The translations under genes and the position numbers were made by a program. From Candidatus Pelearchaeum maunauluense (GTDB lineage Archaea > Thermoproteota > Nitrososphaeria_A > Caldarchaeales > Caldarchaeaceae): a stretch of DNA of 58,410 nt. The notes beneath the pieces are model-generated. The model was not told where the DNA came from. It saw nothing but the letters and a program-made list of their open reading frames with translations, and did no database searches. Below are positions 1-58,410 of this stretch, piece after piece. Position 1 is the stretch's first letter. Every line of letters starts with the position of its first letter. The stretch covers positions 1 through 58,410 of the forward strand of contig JANVYQ010000009.1 of the NCBI GenBank assembly GCA_030059675.1, written 5' to 3'.

Positions 1-1
1 T

Positions 2-789
2 TATATCTACGTAGTTCTTACGAAGATGGAGAGAAGTGGTCTCCTTAGAGGTAAATGGAGAATTGAAAAAGGACGTAGAAAGCATATTTACACAATTACT
101 GAATTTGGTATAACCGAGTTTAAACGCCAGCAAAAAGCATCACTAGACTATCTAATTGCATCATATATTCATATGAACTTTGCAGAATTAAACTTAAGAA
201 ACATAATACAGATTTATAGTAAATACTATAATTGGCTTTTTAAGCGGCTCGGTGTGAATATTGAGAGTTCAAGAGAAGCCAATTTTATCTTATCAATCCC
301 ATATCAGGATTCGCCATTATGTAATGCGATAACAGTTTTAGCTATAAGCGAAGCTTTCCCTTATTTCTGGATATATCTGGTAAACCCACCTGAGATTAAG
401 TTTCATGAGGAAAAGAATAACCTAGTTATCGTTAAAGGTTGGAGAGACAATATACCACTTAAAGACTGTTTTGCCGATTATCTTCACCTCATAGGCTCCC
501 CAAAAACACCTCAGAAGAAAAGACCATACAAAAATCAATTAGAGTTCCCAAGAAGAGTGGCCAGTTTTTAATCCAAGTTCCCAATATAATGGTTATAGAG
601 AAATCACCATTCTGCCCTACCTTTCCCGATTTCTTATCGAGACTATTCTATGAGGTATACGGACAAGATAGCGTTATTAGTCTAAAAAATGTTAAGCAAA
701 TACTCCGAGGCTATTTTAAGAAAGTAAAAAATATAGAATCATCAGGCAACACACCTATACGCAAGTATCAGAAATTAGACTGCAAGTAA
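2..789 (+). pseudogene. PadR-type wHTH regulator fused to a class I methyltransferase-like domain; 5' truncated by the window edge; frameshifted at about 496-506
   Basis: Frame open from nt 2 (YIYVVLTKMERSGLL...GRRKHIYTITEFG, PadR helix/wing). 'VKGWRDNIPLKDCFADY' resembles a methyltransferase motif. The -1 frame continues 'KSIRVPKKSGQFLIQVPN' (cf. RVLKPGG motif) into ORF 589..789. Confidence 0.6.
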
Positions 790-1048
790 AGTTAATATCT
801 TTAACTCGGATGTTAAGTTTCCGAATCTTGTATTTTCACTCATTATCAAATAACGCCGTATTGCATTAAAGTATAACTTAATAGACTAAAAGCAGCTATC
901 ATCATTTGCCAATCAGGCAATTAGATTCATCAGGCTAATACCCACTCAATCTATGATACCGTCTAAAGAATACATGTTACAAACTTTAGGTACCGATGTA
1001 ACTTTTCAGGCATTTTGATTTAACTTTACTATAATATAATTTATTAGC

Positions 1049-2650
1049 TTAGAAAATTTTCGAAAATATCTTATTTTTTAAAGTTGAAAATGTTGAAGTT
1101 TTATTTGTAGCAAAACTTTTGTGTAGATGTTTATTTGATCTTGAGGCTGCTAGCCGGCGATATATGAGAGATGTCAGTATGGCTGCTAGTAGTATTGCTG
1201 CCGCTCTTAGTATTGCTAGTTCTGTCGTTTGTTTTACTATTATGATTTCTATGTTTTTGTCGTTGTTTAGAGTTATGCGGGTTGGGTTGAAGCCTGGGGG
1301 TTCTATTGAGCGGATTTCATATTCACCTGTTGGGAGTAGTAGCTTTATGCTTCCATTTCCCTCTCTTTCTGTTCCGTCTATTGTTATTTTTACCTTATTG
1401 TTGTATGTTTTTCCGTCTGGATAGATTAGGTTTATGTTTAGTTGGTGCAGGTTTGTTATTATTGTTATTTCTTCTCCTGCTCTGAAGGTTAGTGGTTTTG
1501 GTATGTATTCTGTTGTGGAGAAGCCGTTGATTTTTATAGCGGTCTCGATTGTGCGTGTTGGTTCTATTATTGCTTCCCTGTTGGTTATCGTGAGTTGTGT
1601 TTGGAATATTATGTAGTTTGTTCCGTTTATGTTGGTTATTCTTGTTTTTGTTGCTGGTATCTGGAAGTCGGTTATCGTTTTGTTATGTTTTTTATCTATT
1701 ACCTTTAGTTGCGCTATTGGTGTTTTGACTTCGATTCTGCTTACTTCTTCATTTGTCGATACTAGTATCAATGTAATGGGATTTTTCAGGGCTTCTTCTA
1801 TGCTCATTTCCATCTCGGTTGTTAAGGGGAGTTTTGTTATCTCTTTCGGTAGTATTGCTATTTTTTCTCTGAAGAGTTCTTCGGTTTTTGTTTCGGTGTA
1901 TTGTGATATTCTTATTATGTATTTTCCGTATCTGAGTGGGAATATTCCTGATGGGCCTACTTTGTTGATTTCTGGTAGCTGTATTCTAAGTTCCCAACCG
2001 TTTTCCCTTATGCTTGGTTTTGCTATGTAGCTGGCTACCAGGTGTTCGAACTCTAATCTGTATGTTGTGTTTTCGATTTTTCCTGCTATCTGTGCTGGTG
2101 GCTCATCGCGGATTAGGTCTATTTTGTATTGGTAGAATACTGGTGGTTCTAGTTCAAATGTTATTAGCCCTCCTGGTGGGTATGTTTTTGTTATTGTTTT
2201 ATTTGATATTATGAATCCCGTCCCAGATTTGGATTCTATCCGGAGTTTTATTCTTTTATCGTCGGTTATGCTTGTTATGAGTTCCGTTTCTTCTTTTTCT
2301 GGCTCTCTGAGTATTATTCTCATCTTTTTTCCATCGTCGGTTGTTAGGTTCCATGTTCCTGGTTTGTCTTCTGGGCTGAAGCGTTTGAGTAGTGTGGTTT
2401 CTCCGTCTTTTAGTGTTATTATGTGTGTTTCTCCGTTTGGTGATTCTATTGTTATCTCTCCGTCTCCGCCTACAATCTTTATCCAGATTTCTTCTCCTGT
2501 GTTGGTGTCTATTTCCGCGCCGTCTAGTAGTGGGAGCATTATTCCTCCGTATCCTATGAACCAGAGCTTCTCTGCGTAGGCGGTGGGCTGTGCTACTGTT
2601 ATGAGAGCGAATAATAGTGTTGCGGTTAGTATGTGCTTGCTATACTGCAT
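1049..2650 (-). CDS. Secreted, C-terminally membrane-anchored beta-rich surface protein
   Basis: N-terminal signal peptide (MQYSKHILTATLLFALITVAQPTAYA), Thr/Ile-rich beta-like body, C-terminal TM helix followed by basic residues. Confidence 0.7.
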   Translation of the reverse strand: MQYSKHILTATLLFALITVAQPTAYAEKLWFIGYGGIMLPLLDGAEIDTNTGEEIWIKIVGGDGEITIESPNGETHIITLKDGETTLLKRFSPEDKPGTWNLTTDDGKKMRIILREPEKEETELITSITDDKRIKLRIESKSGTGFIISNKTITKTYPPGGLITFELEPPVFYQYKIDLIRDEPPAQIAGKIENTTYRLEFEHLVASYIAKPSIRENGWELRIQLPEINKVGPSGIFPLRYGKYIIRISQYTETKTEELFREKIAILPKEITKLPLTTEMEMSIEEALKNPITLILVSTNEEVSRIEVKTPIAQLKVIDKKHNKTITDFQIPATKTRITNINGTNYIIFQTQLTITNREAIIEPTRTIETAIKINGFSTTEYIPKPLTFRAGEEITIITNLHQLNINLIYPDGKTYNNKVKITIDGTEREGNGSIKLLLPTGEYEIRSIEPPGFNPTRITLNNDKNIEIIIVKQTTELAILRAAAILLAAILTSLIYRRLAASRSNKHLHKSFATNKTSTFSTLKNKIFSKIF

Positions 2651-18702: not shown

Positions 18703-19371
18703 TTAGACTATGTTTCTGGAGCTTATGTAGTGTTGGGCTAGTTTCTTGAGGGCTGCTCTCAAGTGTCTACTGACCGTTGATGTGGTTAGCCCTAGGTTTG
18801 CTGCTATTTGGCTCAGGTCTGCTCTACGCGGCGCGTCGAAGAACCCTAGCTGGAGAGCTACGTTCAGAACAGCTACCTGCTTGTCTGTGAGCCTCACCTC
18901 CCCCTCATACTCCCTATTCTCCAGCACCTCAACGCGAAGCCCCCTATTGCGCATCTCCGAAACAATCTGACGCCCCGATATGGGGCCAGCTACCACAACC
19001 CTAACCAAGAGGCCAACACCATCAAGATAAGCAATCCAGTCGGGTATGCACTGGGACTTGGAAAGCACCTTACACGAGGTACAGCTGCTTGACGTAATCC
19101 AGATATGATTGTCGTCTAGGACTATGGGCTTGACGCCTGTTTTGACCAGCTCCCGCGCATCTATAGGCTTGTCAATCTTGAGGAGATGGTCTGAGTTATT
19201 CTCACCCACTTTTAGCCTCTTAATCATCCCCTGTATAGCCCTTGGCTGGAGGAGCCTGATTACGCTACAATCACTATTCTTAATGACGATTGTTAGTGCG
19301 CGCGTGCCTAAGTGTCTGGTCAAGCCGTGAAAAATAATGGTTGGGTGTTTAAACTGTTTTTGAAGCAACAC
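18703..19371 (-). CDS. Bacterio-opsin-activator-type (HTH_10) transcriptional regulator
   Basis: C-terminal 'LTDKQVAVLNVALQLGFFDAPRRADLSQIAANLGLTTSTVSRHLRAALKKL'; CTSC in the N-terminal domain. Confidence 0.85.
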   Translation of the reverse strand: MLLQKQFKHPTIIFHGLTRHLGTRALTIVIKNSDCSVIRLLQPRAIQGMIKRLKVGENNSDHLLKIDKPIDARELVKTGVKPIVLDDNHIWITSSSCTSCKVLSKSQCIPDWIAYLDGVGLLVRVVVAGPISGRQIVSEMRNRGLRVEVLENREYEGEVRLTDKQVAVLNVALQLGFFDAPRRADLSQIAANLGLTTSTVSRHLRAALKKLAQHYISSRNIV

Positions 19372-20971
19372 GGGGCTTTGAGGGTAGGAAGATTCCTATC
19401 AACGCCTTTATCCCTATTGTCCTGACCACGTTGAGCATGAAGAAGGTGAAGCCAGCAGCCATTAGTAGGGCTCCGACTATCGCCACAGTCATGTAAGGCT
19501 CGTATGGTCCTAGCCCCATCGGGTAGAGTGTTCTTCGCAGCATTCCAGCAGAGCCAGCTAGGCCCATGCTAAGCCCCATTACGAGGCCGCCTACTGTCAT
19601 GAGTATTAGATGCGCATCCGCCAGCCTCTCGTTAAGCGACTTACCTGTGAGCATGGGGAAGAGCGCGTATATTGCGGCGAATATCGTCAGGCTCAGGCCG
19701 ACGAGGAGCTGTACGTGGCCGTGTATCCCGATAACCCACTGCGTGTTGTGAAGATAACGGTTCATTGAGTAGTTGGCTTGTATTATCCCAGCCGTCCCCC
19801 CTATGCCGTAGCCGAGTATAGAAGCCAAGACAAACTTCAGAGGGGCTGAGTACTTCACAGGCCTTGCGAGCCAGATGGTCATTAAGACAGCGAACATCGT
19901 AAGCCCCATCGTTAGCAACTCACCCCACGTGAATATCTGGCCCTGTATCTGGAGGAACAGCGGCTGGGGAGTGTCAGCCAGCATGTGGTGGTTCCATACG
20001 AAGAGGGAAACTACCAGGTCTGCGAGTATGACAGTTCTCACGACGCTCTCACCGTAAAGCGGCCTACCGAGGAGCAGGGGGACGAGCAGATACCACGTGC
20101 CAGCGGTGAATATCAGCACGTTACCATCAGCTATTAGGTCAAGCCCCCACCAGAAGACGTTCTTGTATATGAGCGGGTCTATGATGTTGAAGCTCAGGCC
20201 TGCTCCTGGCAGTAGGTAGGAGAGGCCGAATATTATTATGAGGATTCCGAAGCCGCCCATCACGAGAGCGTTGAGCGTTGTATCAACGCATCCCCGGAAG
20301 ACCGCGACGGCGAATACTGGGTAGTTAGAGACCTTTTCCACATAGTTGGGTATTCCGCGTATCTTTGCCCGTAGCTTGTCTAGGTTGAACGCAGTTACTA
20401 GCAGCTCTTTGGCGACGTATGCTGCTCCAGCCTTGACATTCCCCCCACCATTGGCAACTACTTCCTGCTGCCTAACGGGGAGGAAGATTGTGGCAAACAT
20501 GTTGAAGAAGAATGTGAGGACTTCGAGGATTATTAGCGCAGCACCAAGGCCAAATGCTACTAGGCTAATCGGCTCCCATCCAGCCAGCTCAACAGCGGCT
20601 GGGAGAGGCCAGTATAGAGTGTAGAGAGGCGCGTAGCGTGTTATGAACGTTGTAGCCCAGACAGTTGCTACGCCTATTGTCATCAGCCAGAAGCTCGCGT
20701 ACGCGGCTCTCTTGCTGTATATATCGCGATTCAGCACATAGGGGACGAGGAAGTAGAAAGCACCCATAACAGCCATGTAAGCCCATCCATATATTCCGAC
20801 AAAGGGATGCGCAGTCATAATCGCGTAGAAGTGCTTCTCGGTAAAGAACTCGGTTAGCATGTTGGAGATTCTGAAGCGCATAATCGTTCCTTCAAGGCCA
20901 GCAAGGGCGAAGAATACTAGCGCAACAACGACGAAGCGAAGCGTTAATAGCTTCCGTTCATCCTCGTTCAT
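19349..20971 (-). CDS. Heme-copper oxidase superfamily subunit I with non-canonical active site (B-family-derived, gNOR-like)
   Basis: About 12 TM; MTAH (helix II), WNHH (helix VII), HNTQWVIGIHGH (helix X); helix VI FWWGLDLIADG instead of FWWxGHPxVY. Confidence 0.88.
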   Translation of the reverse strand: MNEDERKLLTLRFVVVALVFFALAGLEGTIMRFRISNMLTEFFTEKHFYAIMTAHPFVGIYGWAYMAVMGAFYFLVPYVLNRDIYSKRAAYASFWLMTIGVATVWATTFITRYAPLYTLYWPLPAAVELAGWEPISLVAFGLGAALIILEVLTFFFNMFATIFLPVRQQEVVANGGGNVKAGAAYVAKELLVTAFNLDKLRAKIRGIPNYVEKVSNYPVFAVAVFRGCVDTTLNALVMGGFGILIIIFGLSYLLPGAGLSFNIIDPLIYKNVFWWGLDLIADGNVLIFTAGTWYLLVPLLLGRPLYGESVVRTVILADLVVSLFVWNHHMLADTPQPLFLQIQGQIFTWGELLTMGLTMFAVLMTIWLARPVKYSAPLKFVLASILGYGIGGTAGIIQANYSMNRYLHNTQWVIGIHGHVQLLVGLSLTIFAAIYALFPMLTGKSLNERLADAHLILMTVGGLVMGLSMGLAGSAGMLRRTLYPMGLGPYEPYMTVAIVGALLMAAGFTFFMLNVVRTIGIKALIGIFLPSKPRVASKTV

Positions 20972-21555
20972 CTTCCACCACCCCCAACAACAGCTATAGC
21001 ATCAGGCACGTACATGTACGGATGCTTAGGACCACTGTACTCTGTTGAGCGTATGTCGTAGTGTCCTGGCTCTTCAAAGACCCATGTTATCCTGTTCTCG
21101 TATGGTTTTGGGACTACCTGCATCTGAAAGACCATAGTCCCGTCTTTTCTGAAGACCCCGAAACCGTATGTTAGGTCGTCTGAGATTACGATGAACTCTA
21201 CGGGTACGCCTGCTGGGATTGTAATGGGCTTCTCAGGCAGGATGAACTTGTAGTCTCTAACTTCTATGACCACCTGCTTTACGGGCTGCTCTTGCGCCCA
21301 TAGCGCGTTCTTGGCTGCTGGCACTAGGGGCGAGAGCGTGGCTAGGTTTCCGAGGAGCGCAACGGCTACTAGGAAGTAAAGCCACTGCCGCTCCCGCCTA
21401 TCCATCCCACGCCCAGCCCCACCATCAGCACGCTCCCGCGCGCTTACACCACCCCTAGGCGGCCTGCGCGTAACTATGTAGAAGAAGACGATGAATCCTA
21501 TTATGGTTGTGAATACCGTGAGGTAGAAGAGCTCTATTATATTCTGTATTGTCAT
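20968..21555 (-). CDS. Heme-copper oxidase subunit II-like cupredoxin lacking CuA ligands
   Basis: TM segments plus 'ITIPAGVPVEF...SDDLTYGFG...QVVP...F.EPG.Y.IRSTEYSGPKHPYM'. Confidence 0.88.
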   Translation of the reverse strand: MTIQNIIELFYLTVFTTIIGFIVFFYIVTRRPPRGGVSARERADGGAGRGMDRRERQWLYFLVAVALLGNLATLSPLVPAAKNALWAQEQPVKQVVIEVRDYKFILPEKPITIPAGVPVEFIVISDDLTYGFGVFRKDGTMVFQMQVVPKPYENRITWVFEEPGHYDIRSTEYSGPKHPYMYVPDAIAVVGGGGR

Positions 21556-21686
21556 TTTCCACATCAATATATACTATAATTATCGTTGTTGATATGGAAT
21601 ATACGCAAAATATTGCATAGACGGTAATATTTACAGCCCAAAATCTTCTAAACAGCCCCGCAGAGCTTAGGAGAGCGTGCCGCAGC

Positions 21687-22843
21687 ATGTTCGTGCACCA
21701 ACTCACAGAGGAGCAGGAAATGCTCAGAAAGGCAATCCAAGAGTTCGCCGCGCGCTATCCAGCCGAGTATTGGAGGATGAAGGATGAGCGCCGCGAGTAT
21801 CCTAGTGAGTTCGTCTCAGACCTTATGCGCTCAGGCTGGATGGGCGTGAATATACCCCAAGAATACGGCGGGGCTGGCTATGGTGTAACCGAGACGAGTA
21901 TCGTGCTGGAGGAGCTGGCACGCTCAGGTGGAGGCTTTGAAGCGGCAGGGGCGGCGCATGCTTCTTACTTCAACGCAACCGTGCTGGTCAAGCATGCCAG
22001 CGAGGAGCTAAAGCTGCGCTACCTACCAGCGATAGCACGCGGCGAGCTAAGATTCCAATCCCTAGCAATAACGGAGCAGGGTTCGGGATTCGACACGCCC
22101 AGCATAAGGACACTAGCAGCCAAGCAAGGCGATAAATACGTAATCAACGGGAGCAAAGTCTTCATCTCACGCATACTACACACAGACCTAATGCTCCTAC
22201 TAGCCAGAACAACACCATACGAGCAGGCAGCGAGGAGAACAGGGGGGATGACATTATTCTTGGTGGATGTGCGGAGAGCTGGAGACGCTATCAGGATACG
22301 GGAGATACCAAACAACGTTAGAAGAACGGTAGATACCAGCGAGCTCTTCATAGAGAACTTAGAAGTTCCAGAGGAGAACATAGTAGGCGAAGTTGGCAGG
22401 GGCTTCTATCACCTACTTGATGTAGTGAATGCAGAGCGCATAGACTTGGCAGCGGAATGCATAGGACTGGGAAGACTCGCCCTAAGCCGCGCATAGTATT
22501 CGGAAAGCCAATAGGCCAGTACCAGGCAATAGCGCATCCGCTGGCTGATGCTTACATAAAGCTGGAGGCAGCAGACCTAATGCGCTACAGGGCTGCATGG
22601 CTCTACTACAACAACAAACCCTGCGGCGCAGAAGCAAACATGGCAAAATACCTAGCAGCCGAAGCATGCATGCACGCCTGCGACAGAGCACTACAAACAC
22701 ACGGAGGATATGGGTTCTCAGTAGAGATGGATATAGAACGATACTGGCGCGAAGCAAGACTACACCTACTAGCACCAATCTCACAAGAAATGATACTCAA
22801 CCACATAGCACAAGACAGACTCAACCTACCAAAATCATACTAA
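21687..22843 (+). pseudogene. Acyl-CoA dehydrogenase split by a deletion/frameshift at about 22490
   Basis: LTEEQEMLR, AITEQGSGFD, VINGSKVFIS in frame 1; VFGKPIGQYQAI, ALQTHGGYG, IERYWREARL in frame 2; the 'VEYAKER'-type linker is missing. Confidence 0.85.
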
Positions 22844-22929: not shown

Positions 22930-24174
22930 CTATATCACCTCTTTTTCTGGAACTATAAAATATTCTTCGCCATACTTAACAGAGAGCTTCTCCGCCATCA
23001 TCTTAGATTTATGTTGTAAAAGCTTTGCATCAGACTTATCAGGTTCGGTAAGTTTGCATTCAAAGAACAAAGCCTTCTCATCACCGAGCGCCACTATGTC
23101 TATTTCGTTTCCATGCCTATCCCAGTATCGCCCAATCTTATATCCCGTCAAGACTAGCGAAACAATTTCAAGACAAAGTTTCTCAAATACATGCCCTAAG
23201 TAGGTTGGTAAGTTTTTCATTATATCCGCTATTACATACTCTATTTGACCAAAACTCTATCCTATCTTTCATAGGGTTAATGAAGCGCATGTAGAAGGAG
23301 AAGAAATTATCCAGCAGCTGATACCGAGGGACCCTGGTCTTCATTATTGTAGGTTCTTTACCTATGATATCCATCTTCTCTAAGGTTAGAATGTATTTCT
23401 TTAGCTTTGTTCTCTCGATAACCCTATAGTCGCTTATCTCCTTAAGCGTGAGCTTTCCCATGGCTATTGCTTCCATGATCTCTAAGTATCTAATCGGCTC
23501 TCTAAGCTCTGTTTGTAACATTCTTTCAGCTTCTTCATATAGAGGAGCGCCTCTCTCAAGGAAAAGCCTGACTATATTTTCGTGTAAGTCTTTTGAATGG
23601 TCGTACATAAGAAGGTAGTGGGGTGTGCCGCCTAAAATTGAGTAGATTTCTACTATTCTACGCTCATCCACCGAAGGGAATATACGTCTTACAGTTACAT
23701 AGTCAAAGCCCCTAAGTTTGACCACTCTGGTGGCTCTTCCGCAGAGTGGCCCAGCATAGCTTAGGTCCCTCTCAATCATACCAACCGTGGAGCCTAACAA
23801 GAACAACTTACACTTTGACGTGTGATGAAATAGGTCCCAGTAATACTGCAGTTTAGGCGACAAATATTTGGATATTCGCTGGTATTCATCAAAAAACACT
23901 ACACCCACATCCTTAGACATCTTGAAGAGATACTCAAGGAACTCATCTAACGACCTGAAGGAGGTGCTGAAGATTGTCACGCATTTGGATAGGAAACGAC
24001 TAAGACTTGAGCCTTCTACATAAACATAATACCCTCCAACAGTCTCTGGAAGCTTTCTAATCAGGGCGTCTTACCAACTCGTCTACGTCCATAAAGTAAG
24101 ACAAGCTCGGAACGCTCTGACTTCACAACCTCCTTCAATATCTTAAGCTCTTCTTCCCTATTGTAGAATATCAC
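22930..24174 (-). pseudogene. Archaeal ATPase (ATPase_2/DUF234-type) with several frameshifts
   Basis: GTG at 24174: IFYNREEEL...LYGRRRVGKT then stop; FFDEYQ Walker B, LGGTPHYL, DNFFSFY; C-terminal 'GRYWDRHGNEIDIVA...FFECK' in another frame. Confidence 0.88.
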
Positions 24175-24291: not shown

Positions 24292-24415
24292 TGCGGGGGG
24301 TGGGATTCGAACCCACGAACCCCTTCGGGAGCAGGTTTCTTATTTTTGGGATCTTAAGCCTGCCGCGTTCAAGGGGGTTTGGTGCCCCTCTTTGACCAGA
24401 CTCGGCCACCCCCGC
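24292..24415 (-). tRNA. tRNA-Leu(TAA) with two introns (24367-24389 at about position 22/23; 24337-24352 at 37/38); CCA not encoded
   Basis: Removing both introns gives GCGGGGGTGGCCGAGTCTGGTCAAAGGCGGCAGGCTTAAGACCTGCTCCCGAAGGGGTTCGTGGGTTCGAATCCCACCCCCCGCA, a cloverleaf with a long variable arm; both junctions form bulge-helix-type motifs. Confidence 0.93.

Positions 24416-57604: not shown

Positions 57605-58410
<806 letters not shown>

What the first reader, a model, noticed from the sequence alone, without database searches (positions are those of the whole stretch)
19349..20971. Heme-copper oxidase subunit I with Asp-x3-Asp replacing the His-x3-Tyr active-site pair
Seen: five of the six canonical His ligands are present, but helix VI reads FWWGLDLIADG (Asp codons at 20140-20138 and 20128-20126) where ba3-type oxidases have FWWTGHPIVYF. 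There is also a Glu in the helix VIII region (TWGELL) and an approximately 50-aa soluble insertion. Known: the cross-linked His-Tyr is required for O2 reduction. From memory, a His-to-Asp ligand swap defines the biochemically little-studied gNOR family, reported mainly in sulfur-oxidising bacteria. Inference: not an O2 reductase, but a non-heme-Fe NO reductase or new chemistry in a thermophilic archaeon. Automatic annotation would mislabel it cytochrome c oxidase.
Basis: partly seen in the sequence, partly recalled or inferred. Interest (0 to 1): 0.82.

Follow-up and report, generated by a model that had tools for sequence, protein, structure and literature searches.

The report
Archaeal gNOR-type nitric oxide reductase operon
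This is a two-gene operon for a gNOR-type (norGH-like) heme-copper enzyme, a family already named but never tested biochemically and predicted to reduce nitric oxide rather than oxygen, found here in a Caldarchaeales-like archaeon whose relatives are described in the papers read here as lacking any nitric oxide reductase.

Summary
ORF 19349-20971(-) is a 540-aa heme-copper oxidoreductase subunit I. It keeps five of the six canonical His, and helix VI reads FWWGLDLIADG (D278, D282).

This is a family signature, not a one-off. Every one of 79 clade members carries D..D, E351 and a one-residue insertion after D282. The clade is monophyletic (SH-like support 100). It contains Persephonella, Sulfurovum, Sulfuricurvum and Methylomirabilis sequences, the taxa in which gNOR (norGH) was defined.

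The translationally coupled upstream gene (20968-21567) is a ba3-like cupredoxin subunit II. Both CuA cysteines are replaced by Ser, which is another published gNOR trait.

Its NO-reductase activity is still only inferred.

In this genome there is a NosZ but no NirS, NirK or NarG above cut-off, which suggests NO -> N2O -> N2 using NO made elsewhere. Across the order, co-occurrence with NosZ is weak (5 of 17 gNOR genomes). In five checked relatives gNOR is the only heme-copper enzyme.

Verdict: a new member of a known kind, of moderate interest.

The parts
20968..21567 (-). Subunit II (norH-like), 199 aa: two N-terminal TM helices plus a cupredoxin domain without a CuA site
   Evidence: ORF. 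It has no Pfam hit and weak CyoA/CoxB hits of 24 bits. The family profile's best PDB match is Thermus ba3 subunit II, E 4e-13 to 1e-12. The AF2 model has pLDDT 83.2. The best Foldseek hit is the ba3 CuA domain 2cua_A, rmsd 2.4 over 100 columns. A homologue lies directly upstream of subunit I in 75 of 80 loci; the other 5 loci start inside subunit I.
21013..21048 (-). Degenerate CuA motif S174-T-E176-Y-S178-G-P-K-H182-P-Y-M185, where CuA proteins have C-x-E-x-C-x3-H-x2-M
   Evidence: Codons are. In the alignment to ba3 subunit II both Cys are replaced by Ser, while the His and Met are kept. The motif reads STEY[SA]G in 74 of 75 loci and CTEYCG in one, L016.
21166..21168 (-). Y134 of subunit II, at the position of the first CuA His ligand
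   Evidence: DLTYGF aligns with DVIHGF of ba3 subunit II. Y134 is nearly invariant in alignment A2.
19349..20971 (-). Subunit I (norG-like), 540 aa, 12 TM helices, gNOR-family heme-copper oxidoreductase
   Evidence: (pLDDT 80.9, pTM 0.85). Its ATG overlaps the subunit II TGA stop (ATGA), which implies translational coupling.
20126..20140 (-). Helix VI D278-L-I-A-D282: Asp in place of the helix-VI His ligand, and Asp one helical turn on, where the cross-linked Tyr would be
   Evidence: D..D is found in 79 of 79 clade members and in 80 of 80 loci.
19985..19990 (-). H328-H329, the two retained active-site metal ligands of helix VII
   Evidence: 79 of 79.
19919..19921 (-). E351 (TWGE, helix VIII), a family-specific buried Glu
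   Evidence: 79 of 79 in the clade. The 57 outsiders mostly have I, V or L here.
20807..20809 (-). H55, helix II ligand of the low-spin heme
   Evidence: It aligns with the heme-ligand His of the A-type chains; 79 of 79.
19715..19723 (-). H417-G-H419, helix X ligands of the high-spin and low-spin hemes
   Evidence: alignment (HGH on HFH); 79 of 79 each.
20891..20893 (-). E27 (helix I), at the column of the quinol-site Asp of quinol oxidases
   Evidence: It aligns with d74 of B. subtilis aa3-600 chain 6koc_A. It is 79 of 79 in the clade and mostly L or A in outsiders. The role of D75 in E. coli bo3 is taken from PMC13022660 (passages read).
20318..20452 (-). Family-specific insertion of about 45 aa between TM IV and TM V (residues 174-218)
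18703..19371 (-). HTH_10 transcription regulator directly downstream. The true start is probably the TTG at 19323 or later
   Evidence: HTH_10 at 66.3 bits. Homologues lie next to gNOR in 16 of 80 loci, all of them archaeal. The alignment shows conserved Cys residues (NSDC and CxxC) in the Caldarchaeales and Geothermarchaeota members.

Best explanation
Genes 21567-20968 and 20971-19349 form a translationally coupled operon. It encodes a gNOR-family (norGH-type) heme-copper oxidoreductase.

Subunit I binds a low-spin heme (H55/H419) and a high-spin heme (H417). Beside the high-spin heme lies a non-heme metal site built from H328, H329 and the carboxylate of D278. This is a 2-His-1-carboxylate set, which I infer favours Fe over Cu. 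D282 sits where the cross-linked Tyr would be, and E351 lies nearby. Without the His-Tyr cofactor the enzyme cannot carry out the four-electron reduction of O2. It most likely performs the two-electron reduction 2 NO + 2 e- + 2 H+ -> N2O + H2O.

Subunit II is a ba3-derived cupredoxin that has lost both CuA cysteines. Electrons therefore probably enter subunit I directly from membrane quinol, at a helix I/II site that keeps an acidic residue (E27) and usually a His (H47) at the positions of the bo3/aa3-600 quinol ligands.

In this organism the N2O could pass to the NosZ encoded elsewhere in the genome. No NO-forming nitrite reductase was found, so the NO would come from neighbouring cells or from abiotic chemistry.

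Shown here: the anatomy, the conservation, the clade membership, the loss of CuA and the gene content of the genome. Inferred: the identity of the metal, the substrate, the quinol donor and the physiological role.
For: - Fold and ligands.
- D278, D282 and E351 are each found in 79 of 79 clade members.
- The D..D group is one side of a branch with SH-like support 100 and stem length 0.88. It includes Persephonella, Sulfurovum, Sulfuricurvum and Methylomirabilis.
- At 50% clustering, only two full-length representatives score high (521 and 394 bits). The next full-length one scores 120 bits.
- Subunit II is a cupredoxin, closest to ba3 CuA, with Cys->Ser twice. This holds in 74 of 75 loci.
- Published gNOR traits match: Asp for an active-site His, a CuA-less cupredoxin subunit and a possible quinol donor (PMC11214002, passages); 'D' at the Tyr position (PMC8756737, Table A4 passage).
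- norGH genes were reported as transcribed in a Methylomirabilis MAG (PMC8906906, passages).
- E27 aligns with aa3-600 d74, and H47 with h94. E27 is 79 of 79 and H47 is 58 of 79.
- This genome has NosZ at 752.8 bits against a cut-off of 625.
- Genes typical of NO-stress regulons lie beside gNOR elsewhere: hemerythrin-domain genes in 10 of 80 loci and Crp/Fnr regulators in 8 of 80.
Against: - No gNOR has been assayed. The gNOR-mentioning papers found are surveys or predictions, judging from listings, abstracts or passages.
- This genome has no NirS, no NirK above cut-off (best 40.9 bits against 296.3) and no NarG, so it has no internal source of NO.
- Across the 76 genomes of the order, gNOR (17) and NosZ (13) overlap in only 5. 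Ten of the 17 gNOR genomes have neither NosZ nor a NirK-like gene. Pathway co-occurrence is therefore weak.
- The quinol-site Arg (R70/R71) is not kept: L23 sits at that column.
- H47 is missing in 21 of 79 members.
- One member, L016, keeps an intact CuA motif, so quinol is not the donor in every gNOR.
- The structure tool returns no coordinates, so the geometry of D278, D282 and E351 around the metal could not be measured.
Confidence: 0.65

Rival explanations
1. It has gNOR architecture, but its physiological job is NO detoxification, not respiration linked to NosZ. It would protect an organism exposed to NO made by neighbouring denitrifiers or by abiotic nitrite chemistry.
For: Ten of the 17 gNOR genomes in the order have neither NosZ nor a NirK-like gene. 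In 5 of 5 checked genomes (G018, G019, G048, G052, G053; 82-97% complete) gNOR is the only PF00115 match. Hemerythrin-domain neighbours occur in 10 of 80 loci.
Against: This genome and 4 others in the order do carry NosZ. Two of them (G028, G034) also have a NirK-like gene. Detoxification and respiration use the same reaction, so they are not exclusive.
Confidence: 0.3
2. It uses a different substrate. The carboxylate-rich site could catalyse some other reaction, such as slow O2 or peroxide scavenging, NO dismutation, or reduction of another N- or S-oxide.
For: No gNOR has been assayed. The family is enriched in sulfidic habitats (PMC11214002, passage). It is the sole HCO in some apparently anaerobic relatives. 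Other HCO-derived families have been proposed to perform NO dismutation or N2O reduction (PMC11214002, passages).
Against: The missing His-Tyr cofactor argues against O2 reduction to water. [quoted passage not shown] Several unrelated HCO active-site variants that lack the Tyr are NORs (same paper).
Confidence: 0.12
3. The electron donor is not quinol. It would be a soluble or membrane-anchored carrier that docks on the CuA-less cupredoxin subunit.
For: The cupredoxin domain is strongly conserved despite the loss of CuA: the STEYSG block and H182/M185 are kept in the archaeal and Chloroflexota members. One member, L016, keeps a full CuA motif. The quinol-site Arg is absent.
Against: Without the two Cys there is no binuclear CuA to relay electrons. 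E. coli bo3, a quinol oxidase, also keeps a CuA-less subunit II (PMC13022660, passage; PMC11214002, passage). No cytochrome c or blue-copper gene is a conserved neighbour in the 80 loci.
Confidence: 0.2
4. It is a decaying or non-functional oxidase paralogue.
For: The genome has three other, canonical HCO subunit I genes. Some nearby genes are split.
Against: The frame is intact. The protein is 42-97% identical to hundreds of homologues. Dozens of positions are kept in 77 or more of the 79 clade members, including the substituted site residues. The gene is translationally coupled to its partner.
Confidence: 0.02

Closest known systems
gNOR (norGH) family of heme-copper oxidoreductases, first reported in Sulfurimonas, Sulfurovum and Persephonella and present in Ca. 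Methylomirabilis
   Same: It has Asp for the helix-VI His, Asp at the Tyr position, a CuA-less cupredoxin subunit II and a two-gene operon, and it falls in the same clade. It is 43-46% identical over its full length to Persephonella, Sulfurovum and Methylomirabilis members.
   Different: The host is archaeal (Caldarchaeales-like), in a genome with NosZ and three canonical oxidases but no Nir. It has an adjacent HTH_10 regulator in place of the 201-aa downstream ORF found in 19 loci, all from Campylobacterota or Aquificota.
B-family O2 reductase (Thermus thermophilus cytochrome ba3)
   Same: Subunit II is closest to ba3 subunit II in both sequence and fold. Subunit I shares the 12-TM fold and the heme ligands. 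Y294 is kept at a column where 22 of 57 outsiders also have Tyr.
   Different: It has no His-Tyr pair and no CuA. It has an extra cytoplasmic insertion and the family-specific residues E27, R226, D230 and E351.
cNOR/qNOR (NorB/NorZ)
   Same: They are predicted to catalyse the same reaction, with a non-heme metal bound by His plus carboxylate and buried Glu residues near the site.
   Different: According to PMC11214002, cNOR/qNOR use three His plus a Glu; here there are two His plus an Asp. That paper relates gNOR to the B family and cNOR/qNOR to the C family. No named cNOR or qNOR sequence was in my tree, so I did not test this part.
Quinol oxidases E. coli bo3 and B. subtilis aa3-600
   Same: They share a CuA-less cupredoxin subunit II, an acidic residue at the D75/D74 column (E27) and a His at the H98/H94 column (H47) (PMC13022660).
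   Different: Those are A-family O2 reductases with His-Tyr and an Arg at the quinol site. Here L23 replaces the Arg, and H47 is present in only 58 of 79 members.
sNOR/bNOR-type HCOs (H-x3-N active site)
   Same: The cross-linked Tyr is lost from helix VI. One such relative, P0144, even shares the WWGL context (WWGLHSYVN).
   Different: They keep all three His ligands and have Asn, not Asp, at the Tyr position. Seven of the 9 H..N rows form one separate starred group. The other two (P0144, P0206) sit on long branches near the gNOR clade but outside it.

Membership tests
gNOR (norGH) | HCO subunit I fold with His ligands for both hemes | tested here: met
   COX1 at 223.6 bits. H55, H417 and H419 are aligned with the heme ligands and are 79 of 79. 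The AF2 model has 12 TM helices, with TM-score about 0.75 to oxidase subunit I chains.
gNOR (norGH) | One active-site His replaced by Asp (PMC11214002) | tested here: met
   D278 falls on the helix-VI His column in MAFFT (52 of 57 outsiders have H) and in hhalign. Pairwise phmmer shifts by one residue. H328 and H329 are kept.
gNOR (norGH) | Asp at the position of the cross-linked Tyr (PMC8756737, Table A4: gNOR 'D') | tested here: met
   D282 falls on the Tyr/Asn column in MAFFT. It is i+4 from D278, so it lies one helical turn further on. hhalign instead treats D282-G283 as an insertion. No alignment gives a Tyr here.
gNOR (norGH) | Second subunit with a cupredoxin fold lacking the CuA ligands | tested here: met
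   (ba3 CuA domain is the best match). S174 and S178 replace the two Cys and Y134 replaces a His.
gNOR (norGH) | Falls in the clade of the founding members (Sulfurovum, Persephonella, Methylomirabilis) | tested here: met
   FastTree of 136 rows: 79 D..D rows form one side of a branch, SH-like support 100. This is a FastTree only, and no Sulfurimonas denitrificans sequence was among the 80 loci.
gNOR (norGH) | NO reductase activity with a non-heme Fe site | not testable with these tools
   In the papers I could search, this is only predicted for the family (PMC11214002 passages; listings).
gNOR (norGH) | Quinol as the electron donor (proposed in PMC11214002 and PMC8906906) | tested here: inconclusive
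   E27 and H47 align with aa3-600 d74 and h94, but the Arg is absent and H47 is only 58 of 79. The paper that names the gNOR quinol residues was not in the library.
B-family / A-family O2 reductase | His-Tyr cross-link pair in helix VI, and three His ligands for CuB | tested here: not met
   D278 and D282 sit in their place. All NCBIfam oxidase models score far below their cut-offs, for example CtaD at 129.9 against 670.75.
cbb3-type (C-family) oxidase, the name given by NCBI sources | CcoN model match, and a helix-VII Tyr that substitutes for the helix-VI Tyr | tested here: not met
   ccoN scores 83.7 bits against a cut-off of 583.15. At the column where the two C-like rows (P0239, P0262) have Tyr, gNOR has the invariant S322. 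That this column is the cbb3 Tyr is my recollection.
cNOR/qNOR | Three His plus one Glu ligating FeB; NorB-type sequence | tested here: not met
   Only two His remain, plus an Asp. No NorB/NorZ model appears among the 7 NCBIfam hits.

The most novel reading that the evidence does not exclude
gNOR may not be the 'non-electrogenic' enzyme it is usually labelled.

Every one of the 79 members keeps a chain of polar residues on helices VI and VIII, where the K-type proton path of the B family runs: Y294, T348, E351 and T354. They also keep a family-specific Arg/Asp pair in TM V (R226, D230) beneath a cytoplasmic insertion of about 45 residues.

If these residues form a cytoplasmic proton-uptake route, quinol-driven NO reduction would conserve energy. 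In the Caldarchaeales lineages where gNOR is the only heme-copper enzyme and no Nir or Nos gene is present, externally supplied NO would then serve as a respiratory electron acceptor in its own right.
Probability: 0.15. Interest if true: 0.75.

Novelty: new member of a known kind. Interest (0 to 1): 0.38.

Why it matters
gNOR is one of the HCO families predicted, but never shown, to produce N2O. It is the only one in which an active-site His is replaced (PMC11214002).

This window adds nothing categorically new, but it does three useful things.

1. It shows that a Caldarchaeales-like archaeon carries norGH next to canonical oxidases and a NosZ. Papers on this order state that N2O reductase is its only denitrification gene (PMC9270275, passage), or that no NOR could be identified (PMC10547907, passage). 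The homologues are labelled cbb3-type oxidase in the source databases, which may be why they went unnoticed. Recognising them changes the predicted nitrogen role of 17 of the 76 genomes in the order.

2. It gives a conservation map of the family: E27, R226, D230, D278, D282, Y294, E351 and T354. These residues are concrete targets for mutagenesis.

3. Relatives from hot-spring archaea are plausible sources of a stable protein for the first biochemical and structural study of a gNOR.

Tried and rejected
- Expression data: no RNA holder was listed for window:19349-21567.
- Earlier scan notes: the look-up near the locus returned nothing.
- Residue geometry from the model: structure prediction gives no coordinates and no model file appears in /data. 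No invariant His other than the five ligands and H408 was seen. The invariant Tyr residues are Y117, Y120, Y269, Y294, Y435 and Y483, and none can be placed at the site without a structure.
- Foldseek on subunit I does not discriminate between HCO families. The top hits are A-type oxidases and bo3, all with TM-score about 0.75.
- Functional linkage through genome context in this window was rejected. The flanking genes are unrelated to NO: a split acyl-CoA dehydrogenase, aldehyde dehydrogenase, DUF72, DUF488, DUF123 and a MazE-like gene.
- The sulfur-oxidation link was rejected for this genome: there is no SoxB hit and only a 19-bit DsrA hit. SQR was not searched.
- The paper on quinol oxidation in HCOs (reference 23 of PMC11214002) was not in the library. 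A search for the aa3-600 quinol-site residues found nothing useful.
- The FIND preprint (10.1101/592808, passage) states that gNOR has a His-to-Glu heme-ligand substitution. In these sequences all three heme His are 79 of 79, so I did not adopt that statement.
- Supplements were closed. Datasets S1, S6 and S7 of PMC11214002 may already list the archaeal hosts and conserved residues of gNOR.
Full report
**What is at the coordinates**

ORF 19349-20971 on the minus strand encodes 540 aa. It matches Pfam COX1 at 223.6 bits in two stretches. It scores far below the curated cut-off of every NCBIfam oxidase model, for example CtaD at 129.9 against 670.75 and ccoN at 83.7 against 583.15. Against PDB sequences it hits 52 distinct oxidase subunit I chains, the best at only E 1.4e-16.

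window:20120-20155(-) translates to FWWGLDLIADGN. The other five canonical His are present: H55, H328, H329, H417 and H419.

An AF2 model built on 23 homologues has pLDDT 80.9 and pTM 0.85. It shows 12 long helices plus three short helices at residues 183-216, between TM IV and TM V. Foldseek matches subunit I chains of many oxidases at TM-score about 0.75 and does not discriminate between families.

**Alignment register**

Three alignment methods disagree in detail.
- Pairwise phmmer to A-type chains pairs G276 with the conserved Gly. This puts L277 on the His and A281 on the Tyr, with compensating gaps.
- MAFFT over 136 HCO sequences puts D278 on the His column, where 52 of 57 sequences outside the clade have H. 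It puts D282 on the Tyr/Asn column (42 Y, 9 N), with G283 as a one-residue insertion.
- hhalign of the family profile against a profile of 14 B-like and H..N-type relatives also puts D278 on the His. It treats D282-G283 as an insertion.

A distant relative reads WWGLHSYVN in the same WWGL context (P0144), which supports D278 = His. D282 is four residues after D278 in a predicted continuous helix. It therefore has the same spatial relation to D278 that the Tyr has to the His. No alignment supplies a His or a Tyr at these positions.

**It is a family signature**

- A word-indexed search found 2732 proteins with E <= 1e-10 among 8000 scored candidates. The 120 listed are 48-97% identical to the window protein. 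They come mostly from Nitrososphaerota/Aigarchaeota/Caldarchaeales, Thermoprotei and Methanomethylicia MAGs, with a few from bacteria.
The best 80 were kept.
- All 80 of these loci read [FY]WWGLD[LM][IV]ADG.
- In the 79-member clade the following are 79 of 79: E27, H55, D230, Y269, K270, D278, D282, G283, Y294, S322, H328, H329, E351, T354, H417 and H419. R226 is 78 of 79. Most of the non-ligand residues in this list are hydrophobic or different in the 57 outsiders.
- At 50% clustering over 1.84 billion proteins, only two full-length representatives score high (521 and 394 bits). The next full-length one scores 120.6 bits at 29% identity.

**Which family**

A FastTree of 136 rows was built from the window protein, 77 full-length locus proteins, the 3 other HCOs of this genome and 55 representatives of at least 430 aa. 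Shorter fragments were left out. The 79 D..D rows fall on one side of a branch with SH-like support 100 and stem length 0.88. That clade contains Persephonella, Sulfurovum, Sulfuricurvum, Nitratifractor and Ca. Methylomirabilis sequences. The window protein nests among Caldarchaeales/Calditenuaceae MAGs.

These bacterial taxa are where gNOR was defined. PMC8756737 lists gNOR with active-site residue D in Sulfurimonas, Sulfurovum and Persephonella (Table A4 passage). PMC11214002 states that M. oxyfera has a gNOR. It also states that gNOR is the first HCO family to replace an active-site His, by Asp, that its second subunit is a cupredoxin lacking the CuA residues, and that it may oxidise quinol (passages read). 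PMC8906906 names the genes norGH and reports them as transcribed in a Methylomirabilis MAG (passages read).

This is only a FastTree, and no named cNOR, qNOR, eNOR or nNOR references were available to me. The sister group of gNOR is therefore not settled here.

**Subunit II**

ORF 20968-21567(-) encodes 199 aa. Its TGA stop overlaps the subunit I ATG (ATGA). It has no Pfam hit. A profile of 27 homologues has its best PDB matches in T. thermophilus ba3 subunit II and CuA-domain constructs derived from it, at E 4e-13 to 4e-12. The AF2 model (pLDDT 83.2) best matches the ba3 CuA domain 2cua_A, at rmsd 2.4 over 100 columns.

In the alignment to ba3 subunit II, the CuA ligands map as follows:

| CuA ligand in ba3 | Residue here |
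|---|---|
| First His | Y134 |
| First Cys | S174 |
| Second Cys | S178 |
| Second His | H182 (kept) |
| Met | M185 (kept) |

A homologue lies directly upstream of subunit I in 75 of 80 loci. The other five loci begin inside subunit I. The motif reads STEY[SA]G in 74 of the 75. One locus, a Thermofilaceae MAG (L016), reads CTEYCG together with the upstream His. That is an intact CuA motif, next to a D..D subunit I.

**Electron donor**

In the phmmer alignment to B. subtilis aa3-600 (6koc_A), E27 falls on d74, H47 on h94 and L23 on r70. For E. coli bo3, D75, R71 and H98 form the quinone head-group network (PMC13022660, passages read). That the aa3-600 residues are their equivalents is my recollection. 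E27 is 79 of 79 and H47 is 58 of 79. This fits a quinol site but does not prove one.

**Genome context**

The window is contig C10 of a 1.79-Mb assembly in 21 contigs, 94% complete.

| Gene family searched | Result in this genome |
|---|---|
| Other HCO subunit I genes | Three, all with GHPEVY; two are fused I+III forms of 778 and 817 aa |
| NosZ | Present, 752.8 bits (cut-off 625), at C18:5659-7512 |
| NirS | No hit |
| NirK | None above cut-off (best 40.9 bits against 296.3) |
| NarG | None above cut-off |
| SoxB | No hit |
| DsrA | 19 bits only |

Across the 76 genomes of the order:

| Gene set | Genomes |
|---|---|
| gNOR | 17 of 76 (5 of 15 genera) |
| NosZ | 13 of 76 |
| gNOR and NosZ | 5 (G000, G016, G028, G034, G044) |
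| NirK-like (E <= 1e-30, none above the curated cut-off) | 18 of 76 |
| gNOR and NirK-like | 4 |
| gNOR, NosZ and NirK-like | 2 (G028, G034) |
| gNOR with neither NosZ nor NirK-like | 10 of 17 |

These genomes are related to one another and some are incomplete, so the counts are descriptive only. In G018, G019, G048, G052 and G053 the gNOR gene is the only PF00115 match.

**Neighbours**

Only subunits I and II are conserved across the 80 loci. Recurrent but lineage-limited neighbours are:
- an ORF of about 201 aa with no Pfam hit, downstream in 19 loci, all from Campylobacterota or Aquificota (within 135 bp of subunit I in 15 of them);
- HTH_10 regulators in 16 archaeal loci;
- hemerythrin-domain proteins in 10 loci;
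- Crp/Fnr regulators in 8 loci.

In the window the HTH_10 regulator is 18703-19371(-). Its homologues share conserved Cys residues (NSDC and CxxC). Its real start is probably the TTG at 19323 or later. The other flanking genes are unrelated to NO.

**Interpretation**

- *Shown:* a conserved, intact norGH-type operon with the gNOR active-site and subunit II signatures, inside the gNOR clade.
- *Inferred:* a 2-His-1-carboxylate non-heme Fe site; two-electron reduction of NO to N2O; quinol as the donor; and, in this organism, hand-over of N2O to NosZ, with the NO coming from outside the cell.

The weak co-occurrence with Nir and Nos, and the cases where gNOR is the sole HCO, fit NO detoxification at least as well as denitrification. 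No gNOR has been characterised in the papers I could search. Searches list only surveys and predictions, and supplements were closed.

**Novelty**

The family is known and archaeal members are mentioned (PMC11214002). Papers on Caldarchaeales nevertheless say the group has N2O reductase 'and no other denitrification genes' (PMC9270275), or that no NOR was identified (PMC10547907). No paper in the library combined gNOR with a claim of its presence in Aigarchaeota, Caldarchaeales, Bathyarchaeia or Geothermarchaeota. Only PMC9270275 holds both kinds of term, and it does not link them. The main text of PMC11214002 names none of these taxa.

I rate this a new member of a known kind.

Noticed in passing
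L016:1713-2288 (+) with subunit I at L016:2295 onward: A Thermofilaceae MAG has a gNOR subunit I with the D..D motif, but its subunit II keeps a complete CuA motif (H ... CTEYCG..H..M). This is 1 of 75 loci. It may be a CuA-dependent gNOR or the ancestral state.
   Followed up: partly
window 18703-19371 (-): The HTH_10 regulator next to gNOR has homologues beside gNOR in 16 of 80 loci, all archaeal. The Caldarchaeales and Geothermarchaeota members share conserved Cys residues (NSDC and CxxC). It could be a redox- or NO-sensing regulator of the operon. The annotated GTG start probably lies too far upstream.
   Followed up: partly
L052:7763-8365, L052:9677-10366 and similar: Hemerythrin HHE-domain genes lie beside gNOR in 10 of 80 loci, across Bathyarchaeia, Chloroflexota, Thermoproteota and several candidate bacterial phyla. 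Crp/Fnr regulators lie beside it in 8 loci. Neither is present in the window.
   Followed up: partly
L076:7318-7923 and 18 other loci: An ORF of about 201 aa with no Pfam hit lies downstream of gNOR subunit I in 19 loci, all from Campylobacterota or Aquificota. It is within 135 bp in 15 of them and 0.8-2.3 kb away in 4. It may be a third subunit and is absent from the archaeal loci.
   Followed up: no
P0148 (462 aa): This HCO-like protein has Arg at the helix-VI His column, Gln at the Tyr column, and Q-H instead of H-H in helix VII. It sits on a long branch near the gNOR clade. It matches none of the active-site patterns I know.
   Followed up: no
window 21687-22496 (+) and 22457-22843 (+): An acyl-CoA dehydrogenase is split into two overlapping ORFs (N and middle domains; C-terminal domain). 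This points to a frameshift, a pseudogene or an assembly error.
   Followed up: partly
window 23183-23980 (-) and 22930-23220 (-): An archaeal ATPase_2 gene starts only at profile position 95, and a separate DUF234 ORF follows it. It looks like one gene that is truncated and split.
   Followed up: no
window 24292-24415 (-): Rfam finds a 124-nt tRNA match at 33.6 bits that ARAGORN did not report. It is probably an intron-containing archaeal tRNA.
   Followed up: no
window 57605-58410 (+): The 5' half of an archaeal 16S rRNA gene is cut off by the end of the contig.
   Followed up: no
window 1-2000: G+C is 0.349 here, against about 0.50-0.57 over most of the window. This may be foreign or intergenic DNA.
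   Followed up: no
G000:C18:5659-7512 and C18:7949-8332: The genome's NosZ (709-aa open frame) has a small cupredoxin-like ORF about 0.4 kb away.
   Followed up: no
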